From: Rahnella laticis
GTDB taxonomy: Bacteria > Pseudomonadota > Gammaproteobacteria > Enterobacterales > Enterobacteriaceae
Direction: 5' to 3'
Length of the DNA: 24,000 bases
Assembly (NCBI RefSeq): GCF_015644585.1
Contig: NZ_JADOBI010000015.1
Span: 101,751-125,750 of the forward strand
Shown: one piece after another, positions 1,733 to 12,900 of the stretch
Numbering within the stretch: the stretch's first letter is position 1
Layout of the letters: each line of letters begins with the position of its first letter
The notes under the pieces: model-generated
What the model was told of the DNA's origin: nothing
Database searches by the model: none
The model's input: the letters and a program-made list of their open reading frames with translations, nothing else
Program-made: the position numbers and the translations under genes

Positions 1733-1764
1733 TTTTTCGATGTTTACAATCTTCTAACGATATT

Positions 1765-1792
1765 AATAAACCAGCACCTGTGCTGGTTTATT
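1765..1792. terminator. Rho-independent terminator, probably bidirectional (argH and the convergent rhs-immunity unit)
   Basis: Perfect 12-bp stem aataaaccagca / tgctggtttatt with loop cctg. A/T-rich runs flank both sides. It sits between convergent gene ends at 1732 and 1850. Confidence 0.75.
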
Positions 1793-1849
1793 AATTTTGA
1801 AAGGACTTTTGTATAATAATTAACAATGGTGTCATTTTTTATAAGCGTG

Positions 1850-2284
1850 TTATTTTTTCATGACGGGCTGTATAAATCCCCCTGAATCAACCAAGAAGCT
1901 AAATAACTCAAATTTGTTGTTTGTTTTGTTTTTTTTATAAGCAAATTCTTCGGCCAAAATATATTTTTTGTACTCGGAAATATAAGTTATTTTAATCAAG
2001 GAATTGTCCTTCTCTAGACTGTATAGGACTCTTGATTTTTCATATGGCCCTAACATTTTCTTCTTTTCCTTCATGAGGATGATAAAGTTCCCTTCAGGCA
2101 TTGCATTTTTGAAATCATTTGACGTCTCTGCATACATTTCCTTTAGGTTATTATCATTGTACTCTGCTTGAAACGTTTTTATTTCAAGTTGTACTTCTTG
2201 CATGTTTTTACTATCACAGGCTGCGATTGTAAAAATCATGACGATCAATATAAAGTATTTGATACAGCTATTATAAATTATCAT
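1850..2284 (-). CDS. small lipoprotein, candidate cognate immunity protein for the Rhs C-terminal toxin
   Basis: ATG at 2284 has AGGA 8-11 nt upstream and lies 7 nt after the rhs stop. The track's GTG at 2305 is an alternative start that would overlap rhs. The N-terminus MIIYNSCIKYFILIVMIFTIAAC has one Lys, a hydrophobic core and lipobox I-A-A-C, with Asp at +2. The gene is very AT-rich (roughly one third G+C by eye) compared with its neighbours. Its position directly 3' of an rhs tip is the usual immunity-gene position. Confidence 0.7.
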   Translation of the reverse strand: MIIYNSCIKYFILIVMIFTIAACDSKNMQEVQLEIKTFQAEYNDNNLKEMYAETSNDFKNAMPEGNFIILMKEKKKMLGPYEKSRVLYSLEKDNSLIKITYISEYKKYILAEEFAYKKNKTNNKFELFSFLVDSGGFIQPVMKK

Positions 2285-2291
2285 GACTATC

Positions 2292-5200
2292 CTAGTCGAA
2301 AGCACATTTAGTTGATTGGTGGCAGGTGATTTTCCCTACAAATGCACCGGCACCTGGCCCTGCTCCAAGCGAGCCAGATTTGTTCCCTGCACTATCTTTC
2401 ATTGCTGTTATCCCAAATTTACCCAACCAGCCTCCGGCACCTCCCCAACCCTCGAGATCGCTTTCTCCGGAAGATACGCTTCCTCCTGATATAGTTCCTG
2501 TAAATGCGCCTCCGGCCGCAATTCCAATTCCTTCATGTTCGCAAAGTGAACGATAGGTACATAGATCCACGCCGATTGGAGACCCTACATTTGTTCCAGC
2601 AGCTAAGCCATATGAATCGTTCCCACCCATAAAGAAATCAAGTGCGTATGACAAATCTACAGAGATAGAACCAGACATTGGTGCATAGTAAGGTCCGGAT
2701 ATCGCTAATAGCGCACCTTCACGATCACTTTCTGACAAATAACGACCAGCTGATTCTGCCGCCTGACCAGTTTGCGATATACCAATTCCAAAGCCTTTTA
2801 GTCCCAAGGCATCGATGTATTGAACAGGATTATTAATGTATATGTATCTATTCCACCCCCCTCTCAACCCAATCGGATCCTGCGTAATATACCGTCCCTG
2901 CGCCGGGTCATAATAACGGTGGCGGTTGTAATGCAGCCCCGATTCCTCGTCGTAATGCTGGCCCTGCATTCTTATGGGCTGGCGCAGTTTGTACGGGTTG
3001 AAAATATCTACCGCGTTGCCCCAGACGTCTAAAATCGCGTCCCATTCCACCTTGCCGGTTTTGTGATTAATCAGCGCCACCGGCGTGCCGAGGTGGTCGC
3101 AGTGGTACAGGTGCAGTTTGAGTTCACCGGCTTCCGGCAGCGGTTCGAGCCATGGCGCGAGATTTTCGGTTTTCAGGCCCACGGAGGCCAGCCACTGCAG
3201 GTGCGCGTCGCTGACGTCGTTCCGGCGGATTTCCTTTTCGATATCATTAAAGCGCTGATGGATGTCGCCGGGGAACGGGCTGCCGGCGTCTTCCTCGAGC
3301 TTTTCCGCCAGCGTGCGGTGGCTGTCTTCCATCCGGGCGTGCTCCGCGCGCAGCAGCGGGACGAAGCTGCCCGGGTGATAAATGGTGTGCAGCTGGGTGT
3401 CGCGGTTCTCGGTCAGCACCAGCCTGTCGCCGTCCCAGCCGAACCAGGTATTCTGCGTTTGTACTTCGCCGGATTGCGGGTTTATCTGGCTGACGTGTTT
3501 GCCCACCCGCCGCCCGAGCGGGTCGTAGATGTAACGTGCCCGCATCAGCGTCTGTCCGTCCTCTTCCGTTGTCAGGCGCGTCAGTCGGTGCGCCTGGTCA
3601 TAGGCCAAATGGCTGATGGCCCCGCCGTTCTGCGGGGTGTGCATCCGGCCCGCGTGGAACGGATGCTTTTCGGTCAGGTTGCCGAATTTATCGTATTCAT
3701 AAAGGTAACATTCATCGCGCTGTACGCGGTTGTGGTACCAGACCGGCCGTGCGTCTTCCGGCGGCACGTTCAGGTCATGGTGCGTGACGCTGCGGTTGCC
3801 GGCGGGGTCGGTCAGGGTGGCGAGAAAGCCGTCGGGGGAGCTGACGCTTTGAAGCCGTCCGGCCGGCGTATAAGCATAGTGATGGTCGCCAAGGCCGGTG
3901 GTCATCTTCGTCATCTGCCCGGCGGTATTGTAATGATAATCGCGCATCAGGTTCGGGTGGCCGACGTCGGGCGTCTTCTGGCCGGCGAGCTGTCCGGTCA
4001 GGGAGTAGGCGTTTTCGCTCTGCCAGTTATCGCTGAACCGGCGGGTGGTTTCGCGGTGCAGCCTGTCGCGGCTGAGTTCGAGCACCACGTCGTGCCCGAG
4101 CTTCACGCCCAGCAGGTGGCCGGGGCCGTAGGTCTGCCAGTGGATTTCCGGCAGGCCGTCGTAGCGGGCCGAGACCTCGAACCCGCGCGGGTCGAACTGG
4201 TGGCGGACGGTGTGCTGCCACAGCAAATCGCCGTGCGCGTTGCGGATAATCTGCCGCTCGCCGGTCAGGCTATCGTTGTCGTCGTACTGGAAGCGCACGG
4301 TGACCAGATGGGTTTCGCTGCGGTGGGCGGTTTCGTTGACGCGCCCGGCGGCGTCGTACTGCCACAGCACCTCGTCCGGACCATCGTCCGTGTCCGGGCG
4401 CTGCTGGCGGATAAGCTGGCCGTCTTCATCGTAGTGCCAGTGCGTAATCAGCCCGGCGTCGTCGCTGCGGATAAGCCGTCCTGATAAGTCGTACAGATAG
4501 TTTTGCACGCGCCCGTCAAAGCCGGTTTCCTGTATCAGGCGGTCCATGACGTCGTAGGCAAAATGCGTTTCTGCGCCGTTTTCATTAACCAGCCGCACCA
4601 GTCTGCCCGCGCTGTCAAATCCGGTCTGCCGAGTGAGCCCGCCTTCGGTCTGCGAGGTCGGGTTGCCGCGCTCATCGTAAGTCTGCGTGGACTGCGTGCC
4701 GTCGGGGCGGGTGACGGTGATGACGTCGCCCGCGGCGTTGTATTCCTCGTGGGTTCTTGCCCCGCTGGCATCTTCGCGAACAATCCGTCTGCCGCGCGCG
4801 TCGTACGCAAAGCGGGTCTTCATCCCTTCTTCGTGCAGGATTTCCACCGGCTGGCCGTCGCGGTTATAGCGGTAAACTGTTTTGAAACCGGAACAGTCGG
4901 TAAAACTTTCCAGCAGCCCCGATGCGTTCCACTCCAGCGTTTGCCGTCCGCCTGCCGCGTCTTCGGTGGCGCAGGGCTGCGCACTCTTGTCGCCGGCGTA
5001 GTGGTAGCGGCGGGTCTGGTTCAGGGCGTCGGTCTCAGCCGTAAGGCGGCCTGAAGAATCGTAGTCTTTACGTATCTGACGTCCGTCGGGCGCGGTGGCC
5101 GTAATCAGCTGCCCGGCGCGGTTATAGCTGAACCGGCTGCGCTTTTCGCCGCCGGGGTGGACGATTTCGGTCAGGTCGCCGCTGGCCGGGTTGAGATGAA

Positions 5201-6473
5201 ACCCGGTGGTGCGCCCGGCGGTATCAGTCTGCGAGGTCAGCCCGCCGCGGCTGTCGAAGGTGCTTTGTACATAACTGCCGTCGGCGTTGTCGAGCCTGAC
5301 CACGCGCCGCAACCCTTTCTCGCCCTCAAAATGATACACGCGCAGCCGCCCGAGGCTGTCGGTGACGCGGGTCTGGTGCGTACTGTATTCAAACTGATAG
5401 TTCAGGCCGCCCGGGTTCACCTGCGAAACAACCCTGCCGGACGCGTCGTACACGTAGCGCGTGGCCGGACGTCCGGCGTAGCGGTGCGCGACCATCAGGC
5501 CGGTGCCGGCTGGTTCCGGATGCCAGTCAAACTGGCGGACAATTTCACCGGCGCGGTCGTACACGGTTTTCAGCTCGCCGCGCGGGGTGTAGTCATAGCG
5601 GGCCAGCGGTTTTGACGGCAAATCCGGAAACGCCGCATCCTTCGTCAGCCAGACGACGGAAAGCCGCACGCCACAGTCAGAACCCCAGGCTGTATTCAGA
5701 ACGGGTCTGAAATCCCGCAGCGTGACTAATTCAAGGCGGAAACGCCGCCCGCAGCTGTCGGTGACGCCGGTAATCTGCCCGGCGAACTCGCCTTCTTCAT
5801 CGCGGTGATAGTTAAGCTGATTGCCGAAACGGTCGGACAAACCCAAAAGCACACGCGACGATGGCAATGGCCGCGGCAGCACGTCTTCAGCGGTTGCGGG
5901 TAACTGCACGCAGCCCAAAATCCACCAGGGTCCGGTGGCGTCGTTGGCCACAAAATAATAGTGCGGGCTGTTGCGCAGAGCTTCCGGCAACGCCCGCCAG
6001 AGCGGACTGAGCGGATGGTTTTCAGGTTGTTTATCCACGCCGCCGCGCGCCAGCCAGAGTTTTTCGCTGTGGCTGAAGGCAATCTGGCCGGGCGGAAGCA
6101 GGTGGAAATGAATGCTGCGCCCGGCATTGTCGTTAAGGATAAGTTCGTCTGCACGGATTTGCAGGCGGATATCCGCCGCCGCCGACCAGCCCGGGCCGAA
6201 CATGCCGACCGGCGCGGGCGTGTCCGTTTTATAGCTGCTGTAAGAACGCGATAGCGCAAAGGGCAGCGGCGCGGGCAGCGCGATATCGGTCTCGCCGGGC
6301 AGAACTTTGGCGCCGAGGGACGGGTTCACGGGGCTGCCTTCCAGCACGCCGCCGGGGCAAACCGAGCAGGCGACGCCCGTAGGTGCGCCAATCATCACGC
6401 CGAGCGAGCCCTGAACAATCGGGCCGCCAATGGCGGTTTTATCGAACTGCCGGGCAGCGGGAAATCCGGTCAT
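2292..6473 (-). CDS. Rhs family polymorphic toxin (PAAR-like N-terminus, YD-repeat shell, variable C-terminal toxin tip)
   Basis: Intact 1393-aa ORF. The N-terminus MTGFPAARQFD..GGPIVQGS..IGAPTGVACSVCPGG..NP.LGAKVLPGETDIALP..LPF.LSRSYSSY closely parallels E. coli/Enterobacter RhsA-type N-termini as I recall them. Many YD repeats are present (YVYDASGRVV, YDSSGRLT, YNRDGQPV, YDARGRRI, YDERGNPT, YLYDLSGRLI, YDAAGRVN, YEYDKFGNLT, YIYDPLGRRV). The core ends RYYDPAQGRYITQDPIGL-x17-DALGL. The core is G+C-rich, as is classic for rhs. Confidence 0.96.
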   Translation of the reverse strand: MTGFPAARQFDKTAIGGPIVQGSLGVMIGAPTGVACSVCPGGVLEGSPVNPSLGAKVLPGETDIALPAPLPFALSRSYSSYKTDTPAPVGMFGPGWSAAADIRLQIRADELILNDNAGRSIHFHLLPPGQIAFSHSEKLWLARGGVDKQPENHPLSPLWRALPEALRNSPHYYFVANDATGPWWILGCVQLPATAEDVLPRPLPSSRVLLGLSDRFGNQLNYHRDEEGEFAGQITGVTDSCGRRFRLELVTLRDFRPVLNTAWGSDCGVRLSVVWLTKDAAFPDLPSKPLARYDYTPRGELKTVYDRAGEIVRQFDWHPEPAGTGLMVAHRYAGRPATRYVYDASGRVVSQVNPGGLNYQFEYSTHQTRVTDSLGRLRVYHFEGEKGLRRVVRLDNADGSYVQSTFDSRGGLTSQTDTAGRTTGFHLNPASGDLTEIVHPGGEKRSRFSYNRAGQLITATAPDGRQIRKDYDSSGRLTAETDALNQTRRYHYAGDKSAQPCATEDAAGGRQTLEWNASGLLESFTDCSGFKTVYRYNRDGQPVEILHEEGMKTRFAYDARGRRIVREDASGARTHEEYNAAGDVITVTRPDGTQSTQTYDERGNPTSQTEGGLTRQTGFDSAGRLVRLVNENGAETHFAYDVMDRLIQETGFDGRVQNYLYDLSGRLIRSDDAGLITHWHYDEDGQLIRQQRPDTDDGPDEVLWQYDAAGRVNETAHRSETHLVTVRFQYDDNDSLTGERQIIRNAHGDLLWQHTVRHQFDPRGFEVSARYDGLPEIHWQTYGPGHLLGVKLGHDVVLELSRDRLHRETTRRFSDNWQSENAYSLTGQLAGQKTPDVGHPNLMRDYHYNTAGQMTKMTTGLGDHHYAYTPAGRLQSVSSPDGFLATLTDPAGNRSVTHHDLNVPPEDARPVWYHNRVQRDECYLYEYDKFGNLTEKHPFHAGRMHTPQNGGAISHLAYDQAHRLTRLTTEEDGQTLMRARYIYDPLGRRVGKHVSQINPQSGEVQTQNTWFGWDGDRLVLTENRDTQLHTIYHPGSFVPLLRAEHARMEDSHRTLAEKLEEDAGSPFPGDIHQRFNDIEKEIRRNDVSDAHLQWLASVGLKTENLAPWLEPLPEAGELKLHLYHCDHLGTPVALINHKTGKVEWDAILDVWGNAVDIFNPYKLRQPIRMQGQHYDEESGLHYNRHRYYDPAQGRYITQDPIGLRGGWNRYIYINNPVQYIDALGLKGFGIGISQTGQAAESAGRYLSESDREGALLAISGPYYAPMSGSISVDLSYALDFFMGGNDSYGLAAGTNVGSPIGVDLCTYRSLCEHEGIGIAAGGAFTGTISGGSVSSGESDLEGWGGAGGWLGKFGITAMKDSAGNKSGSLGAGPGAGAFVGKITCHQSTKCAFD
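2295..2798 (-). other. Rhs C-terminal tip (residues 1226-1393): glycine-zipper-rich domain of unassigned family, predicted released toxin
   Basis: This is the sequence after the DALGL motif (Leu codon 2799-2801). By my count 36 of 168 residues are Gly. Tandem GxxxG runs are present, along with two C-x5-C pairs. Nucleotide composition shifts away from the G+C-rich core. Confidence 0.7.
6339..6473 (-). other. PAAR-like N-terminal motif region of the Rhs protein
   Basis: A literal PAAR tetrapeptide occurs at residues 5-8, followed by GGPIVQGS..V.IG and CSVCPGG. This is the short PAAR-like head seen on enterobacterial RhsA-type proteins. The domain boundary is approximate. Confidence 0.5.
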
Positions 6474-6652
6474 GGGTAAAGTCCTTTTGGGTAAAGCGTC
6501 CGTGGAATGATTGATTTGAAGGTGGGGTATCTATTGTTTTATTCATCAGATAAATACAACAAAATCAAAATGATGACAGAAGCTAGACCTTAAAAGGAGT
6601 GCGCGTTGTGAGGAGGTTCACAGGTATGAGGAATGCAGAATAAGTGAAGGGG

Positions 6653-6674
6653 AAAAGGCGGGCAGGCGTCCGCC
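6653..6674 (-). terminator. weak candidate Rho-independent terminator after the M24 peptidase gene
   Basis: The minus strand reads GGCGG-acgcctgc-CCGCC followed by TTTT, about 17 nt after the peptidase stop. The stem is only 5 bp and alternative pairings exist, so this is modest evidence. Confidence 0.35.
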
Positions 6675-6690
6675 TGAAATTAATCTGGAG

Positions 6691-7776
6691 TCAAAAATAT
6701 TTAATCAACTCACTCATCTCCTCCCAGTCCCGCGGGCTTTTCGTCAGCACTTCGCTGCCGCTTTCTGTTACCAGAACATCATCCTCAATTCTCACACCGC
6801 CCAGACCCGGAACATAAATGCCCGGTTCGATGGTGATCACCATGCCTGGTTCCAGCGGTTGCGTATTTTGCGGGCTGAGCGCGGGGGCTTCGTGGACATC
6901 CAGACCTAATCCATGCCCCAGATTGTGGCTGAAGTACTCGCCAAATCCGGCCGCAGAAATAATATCGCGCGCCACGGCATCAAGTTCCTGACAACGAATT
7001 CCCGGCCTGACGGCGTCGCGTGCGGACTGCTGAGCCAGAAGTACCGTGTCGTATAACGTTTTCAGTTCTGAACTGACGCTGCCCAGTGCGAACGTCCGTG
7101 TCATATCGGAACAGTAATGCTGAAAGACCGCGCCAAAATCAATTGTCACTAATTCACCCGCCGCGAGTTTTTTATCCGTCGGGCGCCCGTGTGGCAACGC
7201 GCCGCGCAGGCCGGAGACCACCACGGTATCAAACGATGTTTTGCTGCCACCGGCCTGACGGACCGCCATTTCTATATGATCCGCCAGCGCTTTCTCGCTG
7301 ATACCTGGCCGGATCAGCGGCTTTATAGCCTGCAAGGCGCGATCGGCAATCGCCGCCGCTTCACGGATTTTCGCGATTTCATCGGCATATTTATGCACAC
7401 GCAGAACCGATGCGTCCCAGTGTTGCAGCGGCGCGTTGCACTGGTTTTCCAGCGTTTTCCAGGCCAGATGAGACAGCGCGCTGGCATCGGCAAACAGCGT
7501 TTCATCACCGGAAATATGCTGCGCAAGAACCTCTGCCAGCGGAAGTTTTGCGGTGAGCGTGACGACTTCTGTGTTGGGATTGTTCTGCCGGCATTCCGCG
7601 CTGTAGCGGCCATCGACCAGTATCAGCAGATGGTCTGCGGTAACCAGCACGTAGCCGGACGCGCTGTAGAGATCAGCCAGCGAATATTTGCTGAATCTGT
7701 CTGTGAGTAAAACGGCGGACATGCGATGTTCTGCCATGTGCTGGCGCAGGACATTAAGGCGTTGCTGACGGCTCAT
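6691..7776 (-). CDS. M24B family Xaa-Pro aminopeptidase/dipeptidase (E. coli YpdF-like)
   Basis: 361 aa, the same length as E. coli YpdF. It has a creatinase-like N-domain plus an M24 pita-bread core with metal-ligand motifs DFGA..YCSDMTRT, HNLGHGLGLDVHE and IEPGIY.PG.GGVRIED. ATG at 7776 is preceded by GGGAGG. Confidence 0.9.
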   Translation of the reverse strand: MSRQQRLNVLRQHMAEHRMSAVLLTDRFSKYSLADLYSASGYVLVTADHLLILVDGRYSAECRQNNPNTEVVTLTAKLPLAEVLAQHISGDETLFADASALSHLAWKTLENQCNAPLQHWDASVLRVHKYADEIAKIREAAAIADRALQAIKPLIRPGISEKALADHIEMAVRQAGGSKTSFDTVVVSGLRGALPHGRPTDKKLAAGELVTIDFGAVFQHYCSDMTRTFALGSVSSELKTLYDTVLLAQQSARDAVRPGIRCQELDAVARDIISAAGFGEYFSHNLGHGLGLDVHEAPALSPQNTQPLEPGMVITIEPGIYVPGLGGVRIEDDVLVTESGSEVLTKSPRDWEEMSELIKYF

Positions 7777-7828
7777 GTTTCCTCCCGTGAGCAGAACAGG
7801 CCGCGGGTGCGCCCTGTCAGGATGGCGA

Positions 7829-9064
7829 TCAGGCGATTTCGAGTAAGCCTTTTTTGATCAGACGGTTGCGGTAGAACACGCAGGTTACGGCGATAAACAG
7901 TGAACCGCCTGCCAGACCAATCAGGTAGGCCGGAATGTTGCTGATCAGCGGCCATGCCCAGATCGCGGATTCCGGGAACCATTGCACCGCGCCGAGCGAA
8001 ACCCCCAGCAGCGCGCCGATAATGGCCCCGATCACGTACACCGGGATCACAAACCCCGGACGTTCGAGCGCAAACGGAATAGACCCTTCGGAAATCCCCA
8101 TAAAACCGAGGAAAATCGCGGTGCGGCCAATCTGGTTGAACTGGCGATCGTAAACACGCCGCCCGACCAGCCATTTGTCGATCACCGTCGACAGCCCGAG
8201 ACCGAACGAAGGAATAACGACCGCCAGACAGCGCGCGGTGATCGGCAACACTTTTTCCGTCGTAAAGCCGAGCGCCACGAATCCGGCGGCTTTGTTCACC
8301 GGACCGCCGAGATCAAACGCCGTCGCCGCTGCCAGTAAGGTTGCGTAGAAATACGTGCCCGCCGCGCCTGCGGCCTGCAAGGCTTCACGGATGAGCGTGT
8401 TCAGCCAGCCGCCAATTGGGGTTATCAGGAAAACCATCAGCAACATCGCGACAATGGCGGAAATCAGCGGGATGAAGAAGGTGGTTTTGAATGCCAGCCA
8501 GTTGTGCGGCAGTTTGATGGTGTTGTTCAGCCAGCGGACGAAATAGCCCACGACGAAGGCAATCACGATAGCACCCAGAAAGCCTGAAGCGACCGGCGCA
8601 GCGGCTGCCCATTCACCATTGATCAGAGCCGGAATAGCGACAGGTTTAATCGAGACATAACCGCCGATAAACCCGGCCGCCAGCGCGGTTTTGCCGCCGA
8701 TAGAGTTGGCGGTAAATGCCGCGAACATCGGAATAGCGAAGCCAAAAAGCGTGAAACCGAAGCTTTCCATGATGCTGGCGATTTGCAGCATCCAGACTGA
8801 ACTGCCGCTGAAGCGCCCGCTGTTGAGCGCCGCCATGATGGATTCGTCCGGCGACATTCCCAGAAAAACATAAGGAATGATTTGCGACAACGCGCCAATC
8901 AGACCGCCCATGATCAGCACCGGGATCATGTAGGAAATGCCGGTCATGATGTGTTTGCTGAATTCTTTCCAGGCATGGCTCTGGCCTTTACCCGCTGGCC
9001 CCGCAGACGGCGTGTCGGACGCCTGGCTGTGACCGGTATTAATGACTCTTTTTCTTATCGCCAC
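7829..9064 (-). CDS. PTS fructose-family EIIC component (E. coli FryC-like)
   Basis: 411-aa polytopic membrane protein. Motifs FAIPMFAAF.ANSIGGK, GGP.NKAAGFVA and FMGISEG.IPFA match fructose-subfamily IIC, and there is strong resemblance to FryC as I recall it. GTG start at 9064 has AAGGAG 6 nt upstream. Confidence 0.9.
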   Translation of the reverse strand: MAIRKRVINTGHSQASDTPSAGPAGKGQSHAWKEFSKHIMTGISYMIPVLIMGGLIGALSQIIPYVFLGMSPDESIMAALNSGRFSGSSVWMLQIASIMESFGFTLFGFAIPMFAAFTANSIGGKTALAAGFIGGYVSIKPVAIPALINGEWAAAAPVASGFLGAIVIAFVVGYFVRWLNNTIKLPHNWLAFKTTFFIPLISAIVAMLLMVFLITPIGGWLNTLIREALQAAGAAGTYFYATLLAAATAFDLGGPVNKAAGFVALGFTTEKVLPITARCLAVVIPSFGLGLSTVIDKWLVGRRVYDRQFNQIGRTAIFLGFMGISEGSIPFALERPGFVIPVYVIGAIIGALLGVSLGAVQWFPESAIWAWPLISNIPAYLIGLAGGSLFIAVTCVFYRNRLIKKGLLEIA

Positions 9065-9100
9065 GGAAAACTCCTTGCGCTTAAAAAAGCAAAAGTGGGA

Positions 9101-9421
9101 TCACTGGGCCTGATCGGCCTCAATCTCATCAATCAGGCCGCCGGCATTTTTCACTGCATCTTTCAGTTCAACTTCATACACTTCGACGCCGTTAAAACGC
9201 TCGATATTTTGCGGCGTAATGCCGGTAGCGTGGATGATGACCGTAGCCTGCGCGATATCTTCTGCCGTCAGTTCGTTCTGAATGCCGTCGGCACCCTGTG
9301 TTTCAATTTTCACGTCATAACCGCGCTGGCGGGCGGCGACTTCAATGGCTTCGGCGGCCATAAAGGTATGAGCAAGACCCATCGGGCAGGCGCACAGCGC
9401 AATCAGTTTTTTTGCAGACAT
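9101..9421 (-). CDS. PTS fructose-family EIIB component (E. coli FryB-like)
   Basis: 106 aa. The N-terminal KLIALCACPMGLAHTFMAAEA contains the phospho-cysteine loop of PTS_IIB_fruc. ATG at 9421 has GAGG upstream, and the RBS overlaps the stop of the upstream M20 gene. Confidence 0.9.
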   Translation of the reverse strand: MSAKKLIALCACPMGLAHTFMAAEAIEVAARQRGYDVKIETQGADGIQNELTAEDIAQATVIIHATGITPQNIERFNGVEVYEVELKDAVKNAGGLIDEIEADQAQ

Positions 9422-9427
9422 CGTGAA

Positions 9428-10813
9428 TTACCTCGTGTTATCGGAAGAAGCGGCGGGCAGATTTGCCAGCCGGTAAAGGGCTTCGGCGTAGATGCCGATG
9501 GCACTGATAAAACGGCTCAGGCTGCCGTATTCGTCCGCGCCGTGTGTATTGCCTGAGGAGCCGTCGGGAAATTCGCAGCCAAAAATCACCGCGTTTTGCA
9601 TTGCGCTGGCGTAACTGCCTGCGCCTGTGGTGCGCGACGGGTGGTTTGTATCGCCGGTATGACGGGTGTAAATCTCGTGCAACGTCTTCACCAGCGCGCT
9701 GTCCGGCGGATAAAGGCTGGGTGATTTGACCGGCTCAATGTTGATGTGGCTGTCAGGCCAGCTGAGGTTCCAGATCGAGAGCCGTTCAGCGATATTTTCC
9801 GGGGTCAGGTTTTCGGGATAACGGACGTTCAGCGTCAGCGACATCATCCCGTTCTTGATGTTCAGGACGACGGGAACCAGCAGGATCTGACCGCATTCTC
9901 CCGGCGTATCCAGCGCGAATTGCACGCCGCTCTGGCCGGTTTCTGGCGCGGTGATTTCGCAAAGTTGTTGTGTCCAGCGTGCGCTGAAACGCTGATGAAG
10001 CAGTTGTGCGGCACCGGCAATCGGATTCAGACAGGCTTCTGGTTTTGAGGAGTGTCCGCCGCAACCATAAAGCTGCCAGTGATTAATTTGCCCCGGCTCG
10101 GCCAGCAACGTAAAACCGTCGGGTAACGTCCAGCCGCCGGAGGAGAGCGACAATCCGTTCAGCCGGGCGACGTCCGGGATGGTGTTCAGCACGCTGCCGC
10201 AGGATACGGTCAAATCAGGCTGTTCAACCGGCGACGTCAGCCTGACCAGCAAAGAGCCTTTTTCGCCGTAAATCACCGGGAATTTTCCGTCCGGCGTGAA
10301 AGCAAAGTCAGGTTGCGGCTGCGATTCAAAATAGCGGCGAATGCAGCGGAAACCGGTCTCTTCGTTGCCGCCCGCCACCAGCCGGATGCGGCGTGAGAGA
10401 GGAAGATTCAGTTCACGCAGAATATCCAGCGCCAGCCAGGCGGCAATCATCGGGCCTTTGTCATCCACGACGCCGCGGCCAATCAGATTGTCGCCCAACC
10501 GCGAGAGCTGATACGGCGGAAAATGCCAGCCGTCACCGGCGGGAACTACGTCAGCGTGACCGAAGACATACACGATTTCCTCGCCGCTGCCGTATTCAAT
10601 ATGGACGGCGTGGTTGTCGACATTGAGCGTGTTCAGCCCGGCGTCGTCGCCGAGTTTTTGCCACCAGCTGAGCGCGTCGGCAACGCCACGGCCAAAAGGC
10701 GCATCCTGCTGCTGGCTGGCTGCGTCGAACGGCGAAGGGATCGCCACCCATTGGGCGAGTAAGGTGAGGAAATGCTGCGCCCGATCCCGGGCATGCGCTG
10801 CGAAGTCAGTCAT
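9428..10813 (-). CDS. M20 family dipeptidase (PepV/Sapep-like)
   Basis: Motifs FGHADVVPAGDGW, GRGVVDDKGP and GGNEETG are M20A metal/catalytic signatures. I prefer the ATG at 10813 (GGAGGG 9 nt upstream). The track's GTG at 10843 and the ATG at 10837 are possible alternatives. Confidence 0.88.
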   Translation of the reverse strand: MTDFAAHARDRAQHFLTLLAQWVAIPSPFDAASQQQDAPFGRGVADALSWWQKLGDDAGLNTLNVDNHAVHIEYGSGEEIVYVFGHADVVPAGDGWHFPPYQLSRLGDNLIGRGVVDDKGPMIAAWLALDILRELNLPLSRRIRLVAGGNEETGFRCIRRYFESQPQPDFAFTPDGKFPVIYGEKGSLLVRLTSPVEQPDLTVSCGSVLNTIPDVARLNGLSLSSGGWTLPDGFTLLAEPGQINHWQLYGCGGHSSKPEACLNPIAGAAQLLHQRFSARWTQQLCEITAPETGQSGVQFALDTPGECGQILLVPVVLNIKNGMMSLTLNVRYPENLTPENIAERLSIWNLSWPDSHINIEPVKSPSLYPPDSALVKTLHEIYTRHTGDTNHPSRTTGAGSYASAMQNAVIFGCEFPDGSSGNTHGADEYGSLSRFISAIGIYAEALYRLANLPAASSDNTR

Positions 10814-10926
10814 TGACGTTAACCCTCCGAAAAACATGGTCACAGCATTGGGTCTGGCGGAAAAACCGTCAAAAGGCAGGGTTCAGAATTGATAAATAAA
10901 ACGGGTAAAATTTTTCGCCGGTTTTT

Positions 10927-11949
10927 TTAAGCAGAAGCGAGAAACGCCGGAGATACCTTCAGACGCGGGTCGTCAGGCAATAATGACTCTCCGGCCAGCT
11001 GCGCATGCAGGCATTCCACTGCCCGCGTCGCCATCTCGGTATGACGTGCGGCAACCAGTGGCAAAGCCAGTTTCAGGGAATGTTCGCACTCGCCGAAACC
11101 CGTCAGTGCGATGCGCCGCGAGAACAGCCGCCACCGGGAGGTTTGCAAACCCTCGGCCAGCGCGTGATGCGCGGCCAGTAATACTGTCGGGTTGTCGCAA
11201 AGGATCGCGGAAATTTTGGGGCTTTGTTTAATGAGCTGAGTGACTGCGCGGAAGCTGTCGTCAAACGTTGCCGCGCAGGGCTGACTTAACGATGCGGAAA
11301 ACGCCAGACCGGCTTTCCCGAGCGCGAGGGAAAGGCCGCCCAGCCGCTCGGCGCGAACCAGCGAATGATTTTCCCCGCCGAGATAACCAATATTCTGATG
11401 CTGTTGTTGAAGTAACGCGTCCGCTGCCATGTGTGCGGCCAGCGCATTGTCGGGATGAATTGTCGCGAGCGGACCGGTATGGAAATGCGTGCCGACGGCG
11501 GTCAGCGCCACATGCCGCGCCGTCGCCCGCGCATGCAGGGCTTTCAGCGTATCAGGCTGTGCATTGAGTAATTTCCCGCAAACGAAAATCCCGCGCACGT
11601 CCTGCGCCAGAAGCTGCGCGGCGTGCTCCAGAAGCGTTGAGGTGTCTGCGTAGCCCGGTATAAGTGTGAAGCCGGTTTGTTGCAGCGCACGGGACAATTC
11701 GGGGAGTAAACCGGCGGCGAAAGCGCAATCCGGTGAAAGCAGAATGCCCGATCGTGTGAAAGGTGTGACTGACGGCGTGGCCGGCAAACGGTAACCGAGC
11801 TGATCGATAGCCTGATAAATGCGCTCCACCCCTTCGGGGGATATCCGTCCTTTGCCGCCGAGCACCAGCGAAACCGCCGCAACGGAAACGCCTGCCAGAC
11901 GCGCGACATCCTGCTGAGTAATTTTAGTGCGGGGTTTTTGCGCCGTCAT
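10927..11949 (-). CDS. LacI family transcriptional regulator
   Basis: N-terminal HTH ITQQDVARLAGVSVAAVSLVLGGKGRISPEGVERIYQAIDQLGYR followed by a periplasmic-binding-protein-like sugar-binding fold. ATG at 11949 is preferred over the track's TTG at 11979. The start is moderately uncertain. Confidence 0.88.
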   Translation of the reverse strand: MTAQKPRTKITQQDVARLAGVSVAAVSLVLGGKGRISPEGVERIYQAIDQLGYRLPATPSVTPFTRSGILLSPDCAFAAGLLPELSRALQQTGFTLIPGYADTSTLLEHAAQLLAQDVRGIFVCGKLLNAQPDTLKALHARATARHVALTAVGTHFHTGPLATIHPDNALAAHMAADALLQQQHQNIGYLGGENHSLVRAERLGGLSLALGKAGLAFSASLSQPCAATFDDSFRAVTQLIKQSPKISAILCDNPTVLLAAHHALAEGLQTSRWRLFSRRIALTGFGECEHSLKLALPLVAARHTEMATRAVECLHAQLAGESLLPDDPRLKVSPAFLASA

Positions 11950-12025
11950 CGTCCTGCCATTCGAATAAATTGACCGCAAAGTGTTGCAGGAGAAGGTCGG
12001 AAAAAAACGGGCTGAGATCGCAGAA

Positions 12026-12054
12026 ACAAAAAAATGGCGGGCACTAAGCCCGCC
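12026..12054 (-). terminator. Rho-independent terminator downstream of the Prx-Grx gene
   Basis: The minus strand reads GGCGGGC-ttagt-GCCCGCC (7-bp GC stem) followed by ATTTTTTTGTTT, about 85 nt after the stop at 12139. Confidence 0.8.
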
Positions 12055-12138
12055 GAAAGTTCACGTAGTCTAACTTTGCTTTTTTGTTGGTAATGCAGGG
12101 ATTATCGTCTTACTTCTTACAGCTGTTTCCGGTGAAGC

Positions 12139-12900
12139 TTATTGTGCAACTTCGCACACTTCTTGTGTTTCTGAATGCAGGTAAACGTCCAGATCGTCGC
12201 TTCCGCCGATGTGGCGCCCACCGATAAAGACTTGCGGCACGGTCGCGCGGCCGGTGACAGCGCGCAGGCTGACGGTGGTGGCGTCTTTGCCCAGTACGAT
12301 TTCTTCATACTGAATACCGCGTTCCTGCAACATCTGCTTGGCTTTGGCACAGAACGGGCAGCCCGGTTTGGTGAATACGGAAACCGATTCCTGCACTTTG
12401 TATTCTGGTGCCAGGTATTTCAGCATTGTGTCTGCATCTGACACTTCAAACGGGTCGCCCGGTTTGTTTGGCTCAACGAACATTTTCTCGACCACGCCGT
12501 TACGTACCAGCATGGAATAACGCCATGAACGCGGGCCGAAACCTAAATCCGCTTTCTCGACCAGCATGTCCATGCCTTTGGTGAATTCACCGTTGCCGTC
12601 CGGAATAAAGGTAATGTTCGATGCCTTCTGTTCTGATTTCCAGGCATTCATAACGAACGTGTCGTTAACGGAGACGCACAGAATGCTGTCGACGCCGTGT
12701 TGTCTGAATACCGGTGCCAGTTCGTTGTAACGCGGCAGATGGCTTGAAGAACAGGTCGGGGTAAATGCGCCCGGCAGTGAAAAGACAATCACTGTTTTGT
12801 TTTTGAACAATTCATCGGTGCTGAGATCTACCCACTGATCGCCCTGGCGGGTGTGAAAAGTAACGTGCGGTACGTGTTTCCCTTCCTGGCTTGCAAACAT
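12139..12900 (-). CDS. hybrid peroxiredoxin-glutaredoxin (Prx5-Grx fusion, Haemophilus PGdx-like)
   Basis: The protein is colinear with H. influenzae hybrid Prx5 as I recall it. It has the peroxidatic site [13 protein letters not shown], then a Grx domain with the CPFC active site and [13 protein letters not shown]. It ends with about 11 extra residues carrying one more Cys (QEVCEVAQ). ATG at 12900 is preceded by AAGAGG. Confidence 0.92.

What the first reader, a model, noticed from the sequence alone, without database searches (positions are those of the whole stretch)
1850..2284. Candidate immunity protein is a lipoprotein with Asp at +2, placing the toxin's site of action at the periplasmic face of the inner membrane
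Seen in sequence:
- The ORF directly 3' of the rhs stop (7-nt gap, its own AGGA) starts MIIYNSCIKYFILIVMIFTIAAC|DSKN.
- This is a textbook type II signal peptide with lipobox IAAC, and the first residue after the lipid-modified Cys is Asp.

Established knowledge:
- In Enterobacterales, Asp at +2 is the Lol-avoidance signal that keeps lipoproteins on the outer leaflet of the inner membrane.
- Immunity proteins reside in the compartment where their toxin acts.

Inference: the Rhs tip acts from the periplasm on the inner membrane or envelope, which independently agrees with the glycine-zipper reading of the toxin. The mature part (about 120 aa, Lys/Glu/Asn-rich) has no motif I can assign.
Basis: partly seen in the sequence, partly recalled or inferred. 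Interest (0 to 1): 0.7.

Follow-up and report, generated by a model that had tools for sequence, protein, structure and literature searches.

The report
Lipoprotein immunity gene behind Rhs toxin
The small gene directly after an Rhs toxin gene in this Rahnella window encodes a lipid-anchored periplasmic protein that is almost certainly the antidote to that toxin, so the toxin acts in the cell envelope; the pair belongs to an uncharacterised family also found in Salmonella, Citrobacter and E. coli.

Summary
ORF 1850-2284 (minus strand) starts 7 nt after the rhs stop, has its own AGGA, and reads MIIYNSCIKYFILIVMIFTIAAC|DSKN, a lipobox with Asp at +2.

New evidence:
- The mature part is a very confident NTF2-like fold (pLDDT 96.9) and a sub-threshold relative of DUF3887/DUF4019.
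- Distant homologues (22-54% identity) sit directly 3' of homologous Rhs tips in eight divergent pairs, all named ones from Enterobacterales. One is a Salmonella vgrG-rhs T6SS locus. This makes it the cognate immunity protein.
- Among these pairs, five immunity proteins have lipobox plus Asp+2 and one (E. coli) has an uncleaved N-terminal membrane helix. These support inner-membrane tethering here.
- A Citrobacter branch has Ser+2, the outer-membrane default, and a Rahnella branch has a non-canonical INGC|E. Periplasmic exposure is therefore conserved, but the membrane is not.

The toxin tip (168 aa) has no Pfam, NCBIfam or PDB relative. It has four invariant Cys, no conserved catalytic set and no transmembrane helix. 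GxxxG enrichment is clear only in the window copy. The "glycine-zipper pore" reading is therefore unproven.

Verdict: a real, uncharacterised periplasm-acting Rhs toxin/lipoprotein-immunity family. It is a new member of a known kind, of moderate interest.

The parts
2292..6473 (-). rhs gene, 1393 aa: PAAR-like N-terminus, DUF6531, RHS repeats, RHS core, C-terminal toxin tip
   Evidence: ORF. Pfam RHS_repeat 7e-61, DUF6531 1e-17, RHS 1e-9. Aligns end to end (47% identity) with a Salmonella Rhs encoded directly after vgrG in a T6SS cluster.
2799..2879 (-). End of the Rhs core, [27 protein letters not shown] (core/tip demarcation motif)
   Evidence: NCBIfam RHS_core / Rhs_assc_core match ends here. 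Sequence. Alignment.
2295..2798 (-). Toxin tip, 168 aa. Composition: Gly 21%, Ala 11%, Ser 12%, net charge -6. Four invariant Cys (C80, C86, C159, C165 of the tip). GC about 43-49%, against 60-68% in the rhs core.
   Evidence: No Pfam, NCBIfam or PDB relative. Family alignments A3/A4. Composition.
2290..2293 (-). AGGA Shine-Dalgarno of the immunity gene, overlapping the rhs stop codon TAG (2292-2294)
   Evidence: Identical in R. selenatireducens.
1850..2284 (-). Immunity gene, 144 aa precursor (stop codon included)
   Evidence: dN/dS 0.13. It is the only ORF between rhs and the terminator.
2219..2284 (-). Type II signal peptide, residues 1-22 (MIIYNSCIKYFILIVMIFTIAA)
   Evidence: Pattern tests and hydrophobicity.
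2213..2218 (-). Cys23 (predicted lipidated +1) and Asp24 (+2, Lol-avoidance residue)
   Evidence: Asp+2 recurs in the tip-linked relatives P0005, P0006-full, P0014 and P0024/P0063.
1853..2212 (-). Mature NTF2-like domain (4 helices plus a 4-stranded curved sheet). The first helix begins 3 residues after the Cys.
   Evidence: AlphaFold2 pLDDT 96.9, pTM 0.87. Foldseek hits to NTF2-like domains including DUF3887 4hyz. Sub-threshold DUF3887/DUF4019.
1762..1795 (.). Perfect 15-bp hairpin with AT-rich arms, a likely bidirectional terminator shared by convergent argH and the rhs-immunity operon
   Evidence: Fold -22.5 kcal/mol, z -3.9. Conserved in L001.

Best explanation
Proposed mechanism:
- The window carries an intact two-gene rhs operon of a Rahnella species. 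It encodes a PAAR-like Rhs effector of the enterobacterial T6SS type. Its 168-aa C-terminal tip is a Gly/Ala/Ser-rich toxin with four cysteines that acts in the periplasm of the target cell.
- Seven bases downstream lies its cognate immunity gene. The immunity precursor is exported, cleaved by signal peptidase II and lipidated on Cys23.
- Because residue +2 is Asp, in an enterobacterium, it is retained on the periplasmic leaflet of the inner membrane.
- Its NTF2-like domain starts only about 3 residues after the lipid anchor. It therefore sits on the membrane surface, where it binds and sequesters incoming toxin before the toxin reaches its target.
- The toxin is most likely non-enzymatic, needs disulfide formation in the periplasm, and damages the envelope, probably the inner membrane.

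Status of each step:
- Shown by sequence or computation: the ORF, the lipobox, Asp+2, the fold, and linkage of the toxin and immunity families.
- Inferred: lipidation, inner-membrane retention, direct binding, disulfides and the membrane target.
For: 1. Anatomy: 7-nt gap, own AGGA, lipobox IAAC and Asp+2. It is the only ORF between rhs and a shared hairpin terminator.

2. Cognate pairing. An exhaustive HMMER search found 37 relatives. Every one whose upstream DNA could be read next to an Rhs tip carries a tip of the same family:
- L008
- L009/L010
- the E. coli rhsC-locus orphan L011/L012/L014
- Rahnella sikkimica L016
- Salmonella/Citrobacter L017/L022
- Citrobacter L026-28
- L029

3. In R. 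selenatireducens the rhs is deleted and interrupted, but the immunity ORF is intact with dN/dS 0.13. This is the usual behaviour of an orphan immunity gene.

4. T6SS link. In Salmonella the homologous rhs follows vgrG next to tssF/tssG. The window Rhs aligns with it over its full length, including the PAAR-like N-terminus.

5. Envelope location. All full-length relatives have a lipobox, a signal peptide or an N-terminal membrane helix.

6. Inner membrane. Asp+2 occurs in 5 of 7 tip-linked proteins that have a Cys at the lipobox position, and the E. coli, Leminorella and Buttiauxella clade uses a membrane helix instead. All named hosts are Enterobacterales, where Asp+2 is the retention signal (PMC6469965).

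7. Binding-type immunity. The fold is a confident non-catalytic NTF2-like one. NTF2-like domains are known immunity proteins and are typically secreted (PMC3924330).

8. Toxin. The only invariant residues are 9 Gly, 4 Cys, Ser46, Asp78 and Tyr82, so no recognisable catalytic set is present. Conserved Cys pairs fit periplasmic oxidation, and DsbA of the target cell activates some periplasm-acting T6SS effectors (PMC5792426).
Against: - No experiment was done, and no SignalP or LipoP run was possible.
- Residue +3 is Ser and +4 is Lys. This is not the strongest Asp-Asp/Glu/Gln context (PMC6469965).
- The Citrobacter branch has Ser+2 and the R. victoriana branch has a non-canonical INGC|E. Inner-membrane anchoring is therefore not a family constant.
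- Immunity proteins can sit in a different membrane from the one damaged, as Sip6 and Tli1 do (PMC6889166).
- Known pore-former immunities are integral membrane proteins, for example Sip4 (PMC12669606). A globular periplasmic immunity is more typical of soluble periplasmic toxins.
- The toxin has no segment hydrophobic enough for a membrane helix (highest 19-residue Kyte-Doolittle mean 1.06).
- The toxin structure could not be predicted (pLDDT 36.7).
- No T6SS genes lie in this window.
Confidence: 0.6

Rival explanations
1. The protein is the immunity lipoprotein, but the anchoring membrane is incidental. It intercepts the toxin anywhere in the periplasm. The toxin's target need not be the inner membrane and could be peptidoglycan, its precursors, the outer membrane or a periplasmic protein.
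For: - A Ser+2 lipobox in the Citrobacter pair.
- Plain signal peptides on tandem two-domain relatives P0012, P0013, P0015 and P0031.
- The immunity is a globular NTF2-like domain, not a membrane protein.
- The tip has no membrane helix.
- Sip6 and Tli1 are precedents (PMC6889166).
Against: - The clades closest to the window use inner-membrane devices: Asp+2 in five tip-linked pairs and a membrane helix in the E. coli pair and its Leminorella and Buttiauxella relatives.
- The tether is only about 3 residues.
- No catalytic residue set is conserved in the tip.
Confidence: 0.25
2. The tip is an alpha-helical glycine-zipper pore former of the Tse5-CT, Ssp6 or EsxX kind.
For: - 21% Gly.
- GxxxG occurs 13 times against 7.3 +/- 2.1 in shuffles of the window copy.
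- Gly-zipper membrane toxins are known on Rhs and LXG carriers (PMC9637101, PMC12744356).
Against: - No sequence match to any PDB chain at E<=10, with either a single sequence or a profile. This includes the Tse5 cryo-EM entry if its deposited chain carries the C-terminal domain, which I did not check.
- No Pfam hit for 8 divergent members.
- GxxxG excess is only 0.8-1.7 sd in three of the four relatives tested (about 2.8 sd in L016), and no GxxxGxxxG is conserved in the alignment.
- No alpha-type amphipathic periodicity: z between -2.0 and 0.8, with beta-type slightly higher.
Confidence: 0.2
3. The ORF is a hitch-hiking lipoprotein unrelated to immunity, and the true immunity gene is elsewhere.
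For: - No direct test of protection was done.
- Several relatives occur without an adjacent toxin (L018-21 and L025).
Against: - Eight divergent toxin-tip and ORF pairs stay adjacent while both partners diverge to 23-35% identity.
- No other ORF exists between rhs and the terminator.
- The stand-alone copies lie in orphan-immunity or Rhs-remnant contexts.
Confidence: 0.04
4. Translation starts at Met16 (as annotated for the 129-aa database entries), giving a cytoplasmic protein without a signal peptide.
For: P0002 and P0004 were called as 129 aa.
Against: - There is no Shine-Dalgarno before Met16, whereas AGGA lies 5 nt before ATG 2284.
- The upstream 15 codons are open and conserved in R. selenatireducens.
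- All distant full-length homologues carry an N-terminal signal or anchor.
Confidence: 0.03

Closest known systems
Tse5 (RhsP1)-Tsi5 of Pseudomonas aeruginosa and Tke5 of P. putida (Rhs-borne pore-forming T6SS toxins; PMC9637101, PMC10684867, PMC13133200)
   Same: An Rhs cage delivers a small non-enzymatic C-terminal toxin that acts on the envelope. The immunity gene lies directly downstream.
   Different: - No detectable sequence similarity.
- Tsi5 is, from memory, a small membrane-helix protein. Here the immunity is a lipid-anchored globular NTF2-like domain.
- This tip has four invariant Cys and no hydrophobic helix.
Ssp6-Sip6 and Ssp4-Sip4 of Serratia marcescens (PMC6889166, PMC12669606)
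   Same: - Enterobacterial T6SS effectors that are toxic from the periplasm.
- The location of the immunity protein is used to infer the site of action.
- Ssp4 needs DsbA of the target cell (PMC5792426).
   Different: - Those effectors are stand-alone helical proteins, and their immunities are integral membrane proteins.
- Sip6 fractionates with the outer membrane, which shows that the location rule is not strict.
Tle1-Tli1 (T6SS phospholipase with outer-membrane lipoprotein immunity; cited in PMC6889166)
   Same: A lipoprotein immunity that faces the periplasm and neutralises a periplasm-acting effector by binding.
   Different: - Tli1 is an outer-membrane lipoprotein and Tle1 is an enzyme.
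- Here Asp+2 predicts inner-membrane retention, and the toxin shows no catalytic motif.
NTF2-like secreted domains DUF3887, DUF4878 and DUF4019, and the Imm-NTF2 immunity families of polymorphic toxin systems (PMC3924330, PMC3482391)
   Same: - Same fold.
- Non-catalytic and exported.
- Weak profile matches to DUF3887/DUF4019.
- NCBI names the E. coli relative 'DUF3887 domain-containing protein'.
   Different: - The window protein scores 15-16 bits against cut-offs of 26.5 and 31.8, so it is not a member by Pfam's criterion.
- No Imm-NTF2 model appears among the Pfam matches at E<=1.
Class IIa microcins such as colicin V (comparison recalled from memory, not tested with sequences)
   Same: [quoted passage not shown]
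   Different: - Much shorter, exported by ABC transporters, and with small membrane immunity proteins.
- No Pfam bacteriocin or microcin model matched the tip.

Membership tests
Bacterial lipoprotein precursor (signal peptidase II substrate) | Lipobox [LVI][ASTVI][GAS]C / PROSITE PS51257 core, with Cys between residues 15 and 35 after an uncharged h-region | tested here: met
   LIVMIFTIAAC, Cys23. DOLOP and G+LPPv2 patterns also match.
Bacterial lipoprotein precursor (signal peptidase II substrate) | Positively charged n-region (PROSITE rule: K/R within the first 7 residues) | tested here: inconclusive
   Only Lys9 from ATG 2284. The orthologue in R. selenatireducens has Arg2.
Bacterial lipoprotein precursor (signal peptidase II substrate) | Lipidation and globomycin-sensitive cleavage | not testable with these tools
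   Needs palmitate labelling and globomycin. SignalP and LipoP were also unavailable.
Inner-membrane-retained enterobacterial lipoprotein (Lol avoidance) | Asp at +2 of the mature protein | tested here: met
   Cys23-Asp24. The rule is stated in PMC6469965.
Inner-membrane-retained enterobacterial lipoprotein (Lol avoidance) | Strong context: +3 Asp/Glu/Gln and no adjacent basic residue | tested here: inconclusive
   +3 is Ser (not basic, but not D/E/Q) and +4 is Lys (PMC6469965).
Inner-membrane-retained enterobacterial lipoprotein (Lol avoidance) | Host belongs to Enterobacterales, where the rule holds | tested here: met
   ArgH is 99% identical to that of Rahnella selenatireducens. Relatives occur in Rahnella, Salmonella, Citrobacter, Kluyvera and Escherichia.
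Inner-membrane-retained enterobacterial lipoprotein (Lol avoidance) | Fractionates with the inner membrane, and a D+2S mutant moves to the outer membrane | not testable with these tools
   Needs a sucrose-gradient fractionation experiment.
Rhs / T6SS effector-immunity pair | Small gene immediately 3' of the rhs tip on the same strand, co-varying with the tip family | tested here: met
   7-nt gap. Eight divergent pairs.
Rhs / T6SS effector-immunity pair | Rhs linked to T6SS delivery (PAAR-like N-terminus, vgrG neighbourhood) | tested here: inconclusive
   No T6SS genes in the window. The Pfam PAAR model was not hit. The protein is nevertheless 47% identical end to end, N-terminus included, to a Salmonella Rhs encoded after vgrG and tssF/G.
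Rhs / T6SS effector-immunity pair | The immunity protein protects against the cognate tip | not testable with these tools
   Needs co-expression or competition assays.
Pfam DUF3887 (PF13026) / DUF4019 (PF13211) | Score at or above the gathering threshold | tested here: not met
   15.3 bits against 31.8, and 15.6 against 26.5. Of the ten relatives scanned, only P0033 reaches the DUF4019 threshold, at exactly 26.5.
NTF2-like fold superfamily | Alpha+beta cone: N-terminal helices packed on a curved antiparallel sheet | tested here: met
   Model pLDDT 96.9 with H4-21, H25-30, H34-39, H42-56 and four strands. Foldseek hits to the PBP2a N-terminal domain (E 2e-4), ketosteroid-isomerase-like proteins, DUF3887 4hyz and 3k7c.
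Glycine-zipper / helical pore-forming T6SS toxins (Tse5-CT, Ssp6 and similar) | Sequence or profile similarity to a characterised member | tested here: not met
   No PDB chain at E<=10. No Pfam or NCBIfam family.
Glycine-zipper / helical pore-forming T6SS toxins (Tse5-CT, Ssp6 and similar) | Conserved (G/A/S)xxxG repeats within hydrophobic helices | tested here: inconclusive
   - GxxxG is enriched in the window copy (13 against 7.3 +/- 2.1) and in L016, but less in the other relatives.
- The highest 19-residue hydropathy is 1.06.
- There is no alpha-type periodicity.

The most novel reading that the evidence does not exclude
The tip may found a new class of Rhs-delivered toxins: disulfide-locked, Gly-rich, non-enzymatic and activated in the periplasm. 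Its neutraliser would be a membrane-tethered NTF2-like 'catcher' domain rather than a transmembrane immunity protein. During evolution the catcher has been re-anchored several ways: Asp+2 lipid anchor, membrane helix, Ser+2 outer-membrane lipid anchor, or soluble tandem domains. That would mean immunity works by interception in the periplasm, and that the anchor is tuned to the route the toxin takes.
Probability: 0.3. Interest if true: 0.6.

Novelty: new member of a known kind. Interest (0 to 1): 0.45.

Why it matters
- Most characterised Rhs tips are cytoplasmic enzymes such as nucleases, NADases and ADP-ribosyltransferases. Envelope-acting Rhs tips are few (Tse5, Tke5).
- This pair defines an uncharacterised toxin domain with no Pfam, NCBIfam or PDB relative, together with its immunity family.
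- The family is present in a vgrG-rhs T6SS cluster of many Salmonella enterica isolates, in Citrobacter and Kluyvera, and as an orphan module in 19 of 5426 complete E. coli genomes. Published surveys still list some Salmonella SPI-6 Rhs C-termini as 'unknown function' (PMC11669294).
- The natural variation in how the immunity domain is anchored gives a ready-made experiment on whether immunity location matters for a periplasm-acting toxin.

Tried and rejected
- Word-indexed protein search with the tip found nothing, probably because Gly-rich words swamp the candidate list. The same tool with the immunity profile added almost nothing.
Rarity among species representatives is therefore a lower bound.
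The result was unusable (pLDDT 36.7), so no fold search was made for the toxin.
- A Cys/His catalytic dyad (LCEHEG) was considered and rejected. His88 is Gly in the Salmonella tip and Ala in L029.
- Amphipathic-periodicity analysis of the tip was inconclusive.
- A promoter inside the rhs 3' end (TCGACT-18-TATAAT) is no more than the shuffles give.
- Literature searches for DUF3887 or DUF4878 as T6SS immunity proteins, and for quantitative +3 effects on Lol avoidance, found nothing usable.
Full report
**What is in the sequence.** The finding lies on the minus strand. An intact rhs gene runs from 6473 to 2292 and encodes 1393 aa. It contains DUF6531, twelve RHS-repeat matches and the RHS core domain. 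The core ends in [27 protein letters not shown]. The last 168 aa (2798-2295) form the polymorphic tip. The stop TAG (2294-2292) is followed by GATAGTC and then ATG at 2284. AGGA (2293-2290) overlaps the stop and lies 5 nt before the ATG. It is the only ORF before a perfect 15-bp hairpin at 1762-1795 (z -3.9), which separates it from the convergent argH gene (356-1732). GC content falls from 60-68% in the rhs core to 43-49% over the tip and 31-37% over the small ORF. This is the usual signature of a swapped-in toxin/immunity cassette. ArgH is 99% identical to that of Rahnella selenatireducens, so the host is a Rahnella (Yersiniaceae, Enterobacterales).

**The signal peptide.** SignalP and LipoP were not available, so I applied the published patterns. 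The PROSITE PS51257 core, the DOLOP lipobox and the G+LPPv2 pattern all match, with Cys at position 23. The h-region (Y10-A22) is strongly hydrophobic. The one weak point is the n-region, which holds a single Lys at position 9. The R. selenatireducens orthologue reads MRIYNS.... The mature part has no other Cys.

**The start codon.** Database entries P0002 and P0004 start at Met16 (129 aa), which would remove the signal peptide. Three observations argue against that start:
- Met16 has no ribosome-binding site.
- The 15 upstream codons are open and conserved in the sister species.
- Every full-length distant homologue has an N-terminal signal or anchor.

Between the two Rahnella genomes the ORF has dN/dS 0.13, against 0.02 for argH and 0.38 for the tip. 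In the sister species the tip lies in a disrupted rhs. The ORF is therefore a real gene under purifying selection.

**The mature domain.** Pfam gives only sub-threshold matches, to DUF4019 (E 0.022) and DUF3887 (E 0.032). The word-indexed search found only near-identical Rahnella proteins. The exhaustive HMMER search found 37 relatives at 22-54% identity. With 31 of them as the alignment, AlphaFold2 gave a model with pLDDT 96.9 and pTM 0.87. It has four helices packed on a four-stranded curved sheet, and the first helix begins three residues after the lipidated Cys. Foldseek against the PDB returns NTF2-like domains: the N-terminal domain of PBP2a (E 2e-4), ketosteroid-isomerase-like proteins, the DUF3887 structure 4hyz and the DUF4878 structure 3k7c. 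DUF3887 and DUF4878 were described as non-catalytic, exported NTF2-like domains, and NTF2-like domains are known immunity proteins of polymorphic toxin systems (PMC3924330). NCBI already names the E. coli relatives 'DUF3887 domain-containing protein'. By Pfam's own threshold, however, the protein is not a member of either DUF.

**Is it the immunity protein?** I read the DNA upstream of the relatives wherever contigs allowed. Eight mutually divergent pairs each place an Rhs tip of one family directly 5' of a member of this family:

| Pair | Source |
|---|---|
| 1 | the window and R. selenatireducens |
| 2 | L008 |
| 3 | L009/L010 (Rahnella sp. BIGb0236 / R. victoriana cluster) |
| 4 | an orphan module in the E. 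coli rhsC locus, present in 19 of 5426 complete genomes |
| 5 | R. sikkimica, behind a full 1397-aa Rhs |
| 6 | Salmonella enterica / Citrobacter / Kluyvera |
| 7 | Citrobacter sedlakii |
| 8 | the metagenomic contig L029 |

The tips diverge to 23-35% identity with the window tip and the immunity proteins to about 30%, yet they stay adjacent. In R. selenatireducens the rhs has lost its middle and carries in-frame stops, while the small ORF is intact. Copies without a toxin occur in Rhs-remnant or orphan-immunity settings, in Leminorella next to thiI and in the L025 island. This is the behaviour of a cognate immunity gene. Protection itself is untested.

**Delivery.** The window holds no T6SS gene. 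The genes 5' of rhs are an M24 peptidase, PTS IIC/IIB, an M20 peptidase and a LacI regulator. In Salmonella the homologous rhs follows vgrG beside tssF and tssG. The window Rhs aligns with that protein over its whole length at 47% identity, including the PAAR-like N-terminus. T6SS delivery is thus inferred by homology.

**Where does the immunity protein sit?** All full-length relatives are exported or membrane-anchored. Among the eight tip-linked pairs the N-termini are:

| Immunity protein | N-terminal feature |
|---|---|
| window | IAAC\|DS |
| P0005 | LLGC\|DD |
| P0006, full-length (L029) | ITGC\|DK |
| P0014 | LVGC\|DS |
| P0024/P0063 | LVGC\|DD |
| P0007 | INGC\|EK (non-canonical) |
| E. 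coli P0008 | uncleaved N-terminal membrane helix, no Cys |
| Citrobacter P0016 | MCGC\|SP |

All the named hosts are Enterobacterales. There, Asp at +2 is the accepted inner-membrane retention signal. It is strongest when followed by Asp, Glu or Gln and without an adjacent basic residue (PMC6469965). Five Asp+2 anchors and one membrane helix independently support inner-membrane tethering for the window protein and its nearest clades. These pairs are phylogenetically related, so this is not a formal statistic. The Ser+2 Citrobacter branch would go to the outer membrane by default, and tandem two-domain relatives carry plain signal peptides. What the family conserves is therefore exposure to the periplasm, not a particular membrane.

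The literature agrees that immunity location usually marks the site of action (PMC12669606). It also gives exceptions. Sip6 fractionates with the outer membrane although Ssp6 depolarises the inner membrane, and Tli1 is an outer-membrane lipoprotein (PMC6889166). I therefore rate 'the toxin acts in the periplasm' as well supported. I rate 'at the periplasmic face of the inner membrane' as plausible for this protein but not established.

**The toxin.**
- The tip has no relative in Pfam, NCBIfam or the PDB. This holds for the single sequence, for a profile of eight members, and for each member scanned on its own.
- The only residues invariant across the eight tips are nine Gly, four Cys (two C-x5-C pairs, at tip positions 80/86 and 159/165), Ser46, Asp78 and Tyr82.
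- The His of the LCEHEG motif is not conserved, so a Cys/His enzyme is unlikely.
- Four invariant Cys in a secreted effector suggest disulfide formation in the target periplasm. DsbA-dependent activation of periplasm-acting T6SS effectors is documented (PMC5792426).
- The tip is acidic and only mildly hydrophobic. Its best 19-residue window scores 1.06 on the Kyte-Doolittle scale, well below a membrane helix.
- GxxxG is enriched in the window copy (13 against 7.3 +/- 2.1) and in L016 (about 2.8 sd), but only 0.8-1.7 sd in the other three relatives tested.
- No alpha-type amphipathic periodicity is detectable.
- The single-sequence structure prediction failed.

The glycine-zipper reading therefore does not independently corroborate the lipoprotein inference. 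A globular periplasmic immunity protein is also unlike the integral-membrane immunities of known pore formers.

My best guess is a non-enzymatic, disulfide-stabilised toxin that damages the envelope and is captured at the membrane surface by the NTF2-like domain. The target remains open.

**Novelty.** The kind of system, an Rhs effector with a downstream immunity gene, is well known. The specific toxin domain and its immunity family appear uncharacterised. Searches of the held literature found no study of them. Surveys of Salmonella T6SS effectors still list some SPI-6 and SPI-19 Rhs C-termini as of unknown function (PMC11669294). I classify it as a new member of a known kind, of moderate interest.

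Noticed in passing
L001:8667-9948 (Rahnella selenatireducens, same argH-flanked locus): The rhs gene is reduced to the first 28 codons of the PAAR-like N-terminus joined to the last ~200 codons of the core. It has in-frame stops before the tip, yet the immunity ORF is intact. The PTS/peptidase gene block found 5' of rhs in the window is absent there.
   Followed up: partly
L008:440-470; L011:4255-4330; L012:395-470: In two independent lineages the tip reading frame is broken at the same place, directly after the conserved '..TGG' (tip position ~123). L008 has a frameshift beside a G6 run. E. coli L011/L012 have a TAA codon plus a later frameshift. The tip is intact in E. coli K_EC180 (L014:9043-9525). 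This could be coincidence, a mutational hotspot, or selection for inactivated orphan toxins.
   Followed up: partly
L014:8758-9981 and L015 (E. coli rhsC locus, ybfA-rhsC-ybfD): An orphan tip plus immunity module of this family lies downstream of the main rhsC toxin/immunity pair in 19 of 5426 complete E. coli genomes, many of them porcine ETEC/O139. Here the immunity protein has a membrane helix in place of a lipobox.
   Followed up: yes
L025:1-5100: An island of stand-alone immunity-like genes holds two paralogues of this family with different anchors (P0028 LVGC|DN at 3735-4157 and P0035 VCGC|SP at 4667-5062). It also holds DUF6714 genes and, at its 5' end, the tail of a different Gly-zipper-like toxin followed by a small membrane protein.
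   Followed up: no
P0012, P0013, P0015, P0031: Some relatives are tandem duplications of the NTF2-like domain (257-268 aa) behind an ordinary signal peptide with no lipobox. Their genomic context was not examined.
   Followed up: no
window 1762-1795: A perfect 15-bp hairpin with AT-rich arms lies between the convergent argH and immunity genes. It is conserved in R. selenatireducens and is probably a bidirectional terminator. The simple terminator scan missed it.
   Followed up: partly
(database names of relatives): Annotation problems:
- Start codons called at Met16 remove the signal peptide (P0002, P0004).
- Relatives are named 'type IV secretion protein Rhs' (Citrobacter), 'sugar tyrosine-protein kinase' (Leminorella, Buttiauxella, E. 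coli) and 'Uncharacterised protein [Campylobacter jejuni]'. The last is likely a contaminated or mislabelled record.
   Followed up: no
L029:129-596 and 1196-2206: Two consecutive orphan Rhs C-terminal modules on one contig both carry tips of this same family. The first is followed by a DK-type immunity gene, and the contig ends before the second one's partner.
   Followed up: no
window 6474-12900: No vgrG, chaperone or other T6SS gene lies next to this rhs. The 5' neighbours are an M24 peptidase, PTS EIIC/EIIB, an M20 peptidase, a LacI-type regulator and a peroxiredoxin-glutaredoxin fusion.
   Followed up: partly
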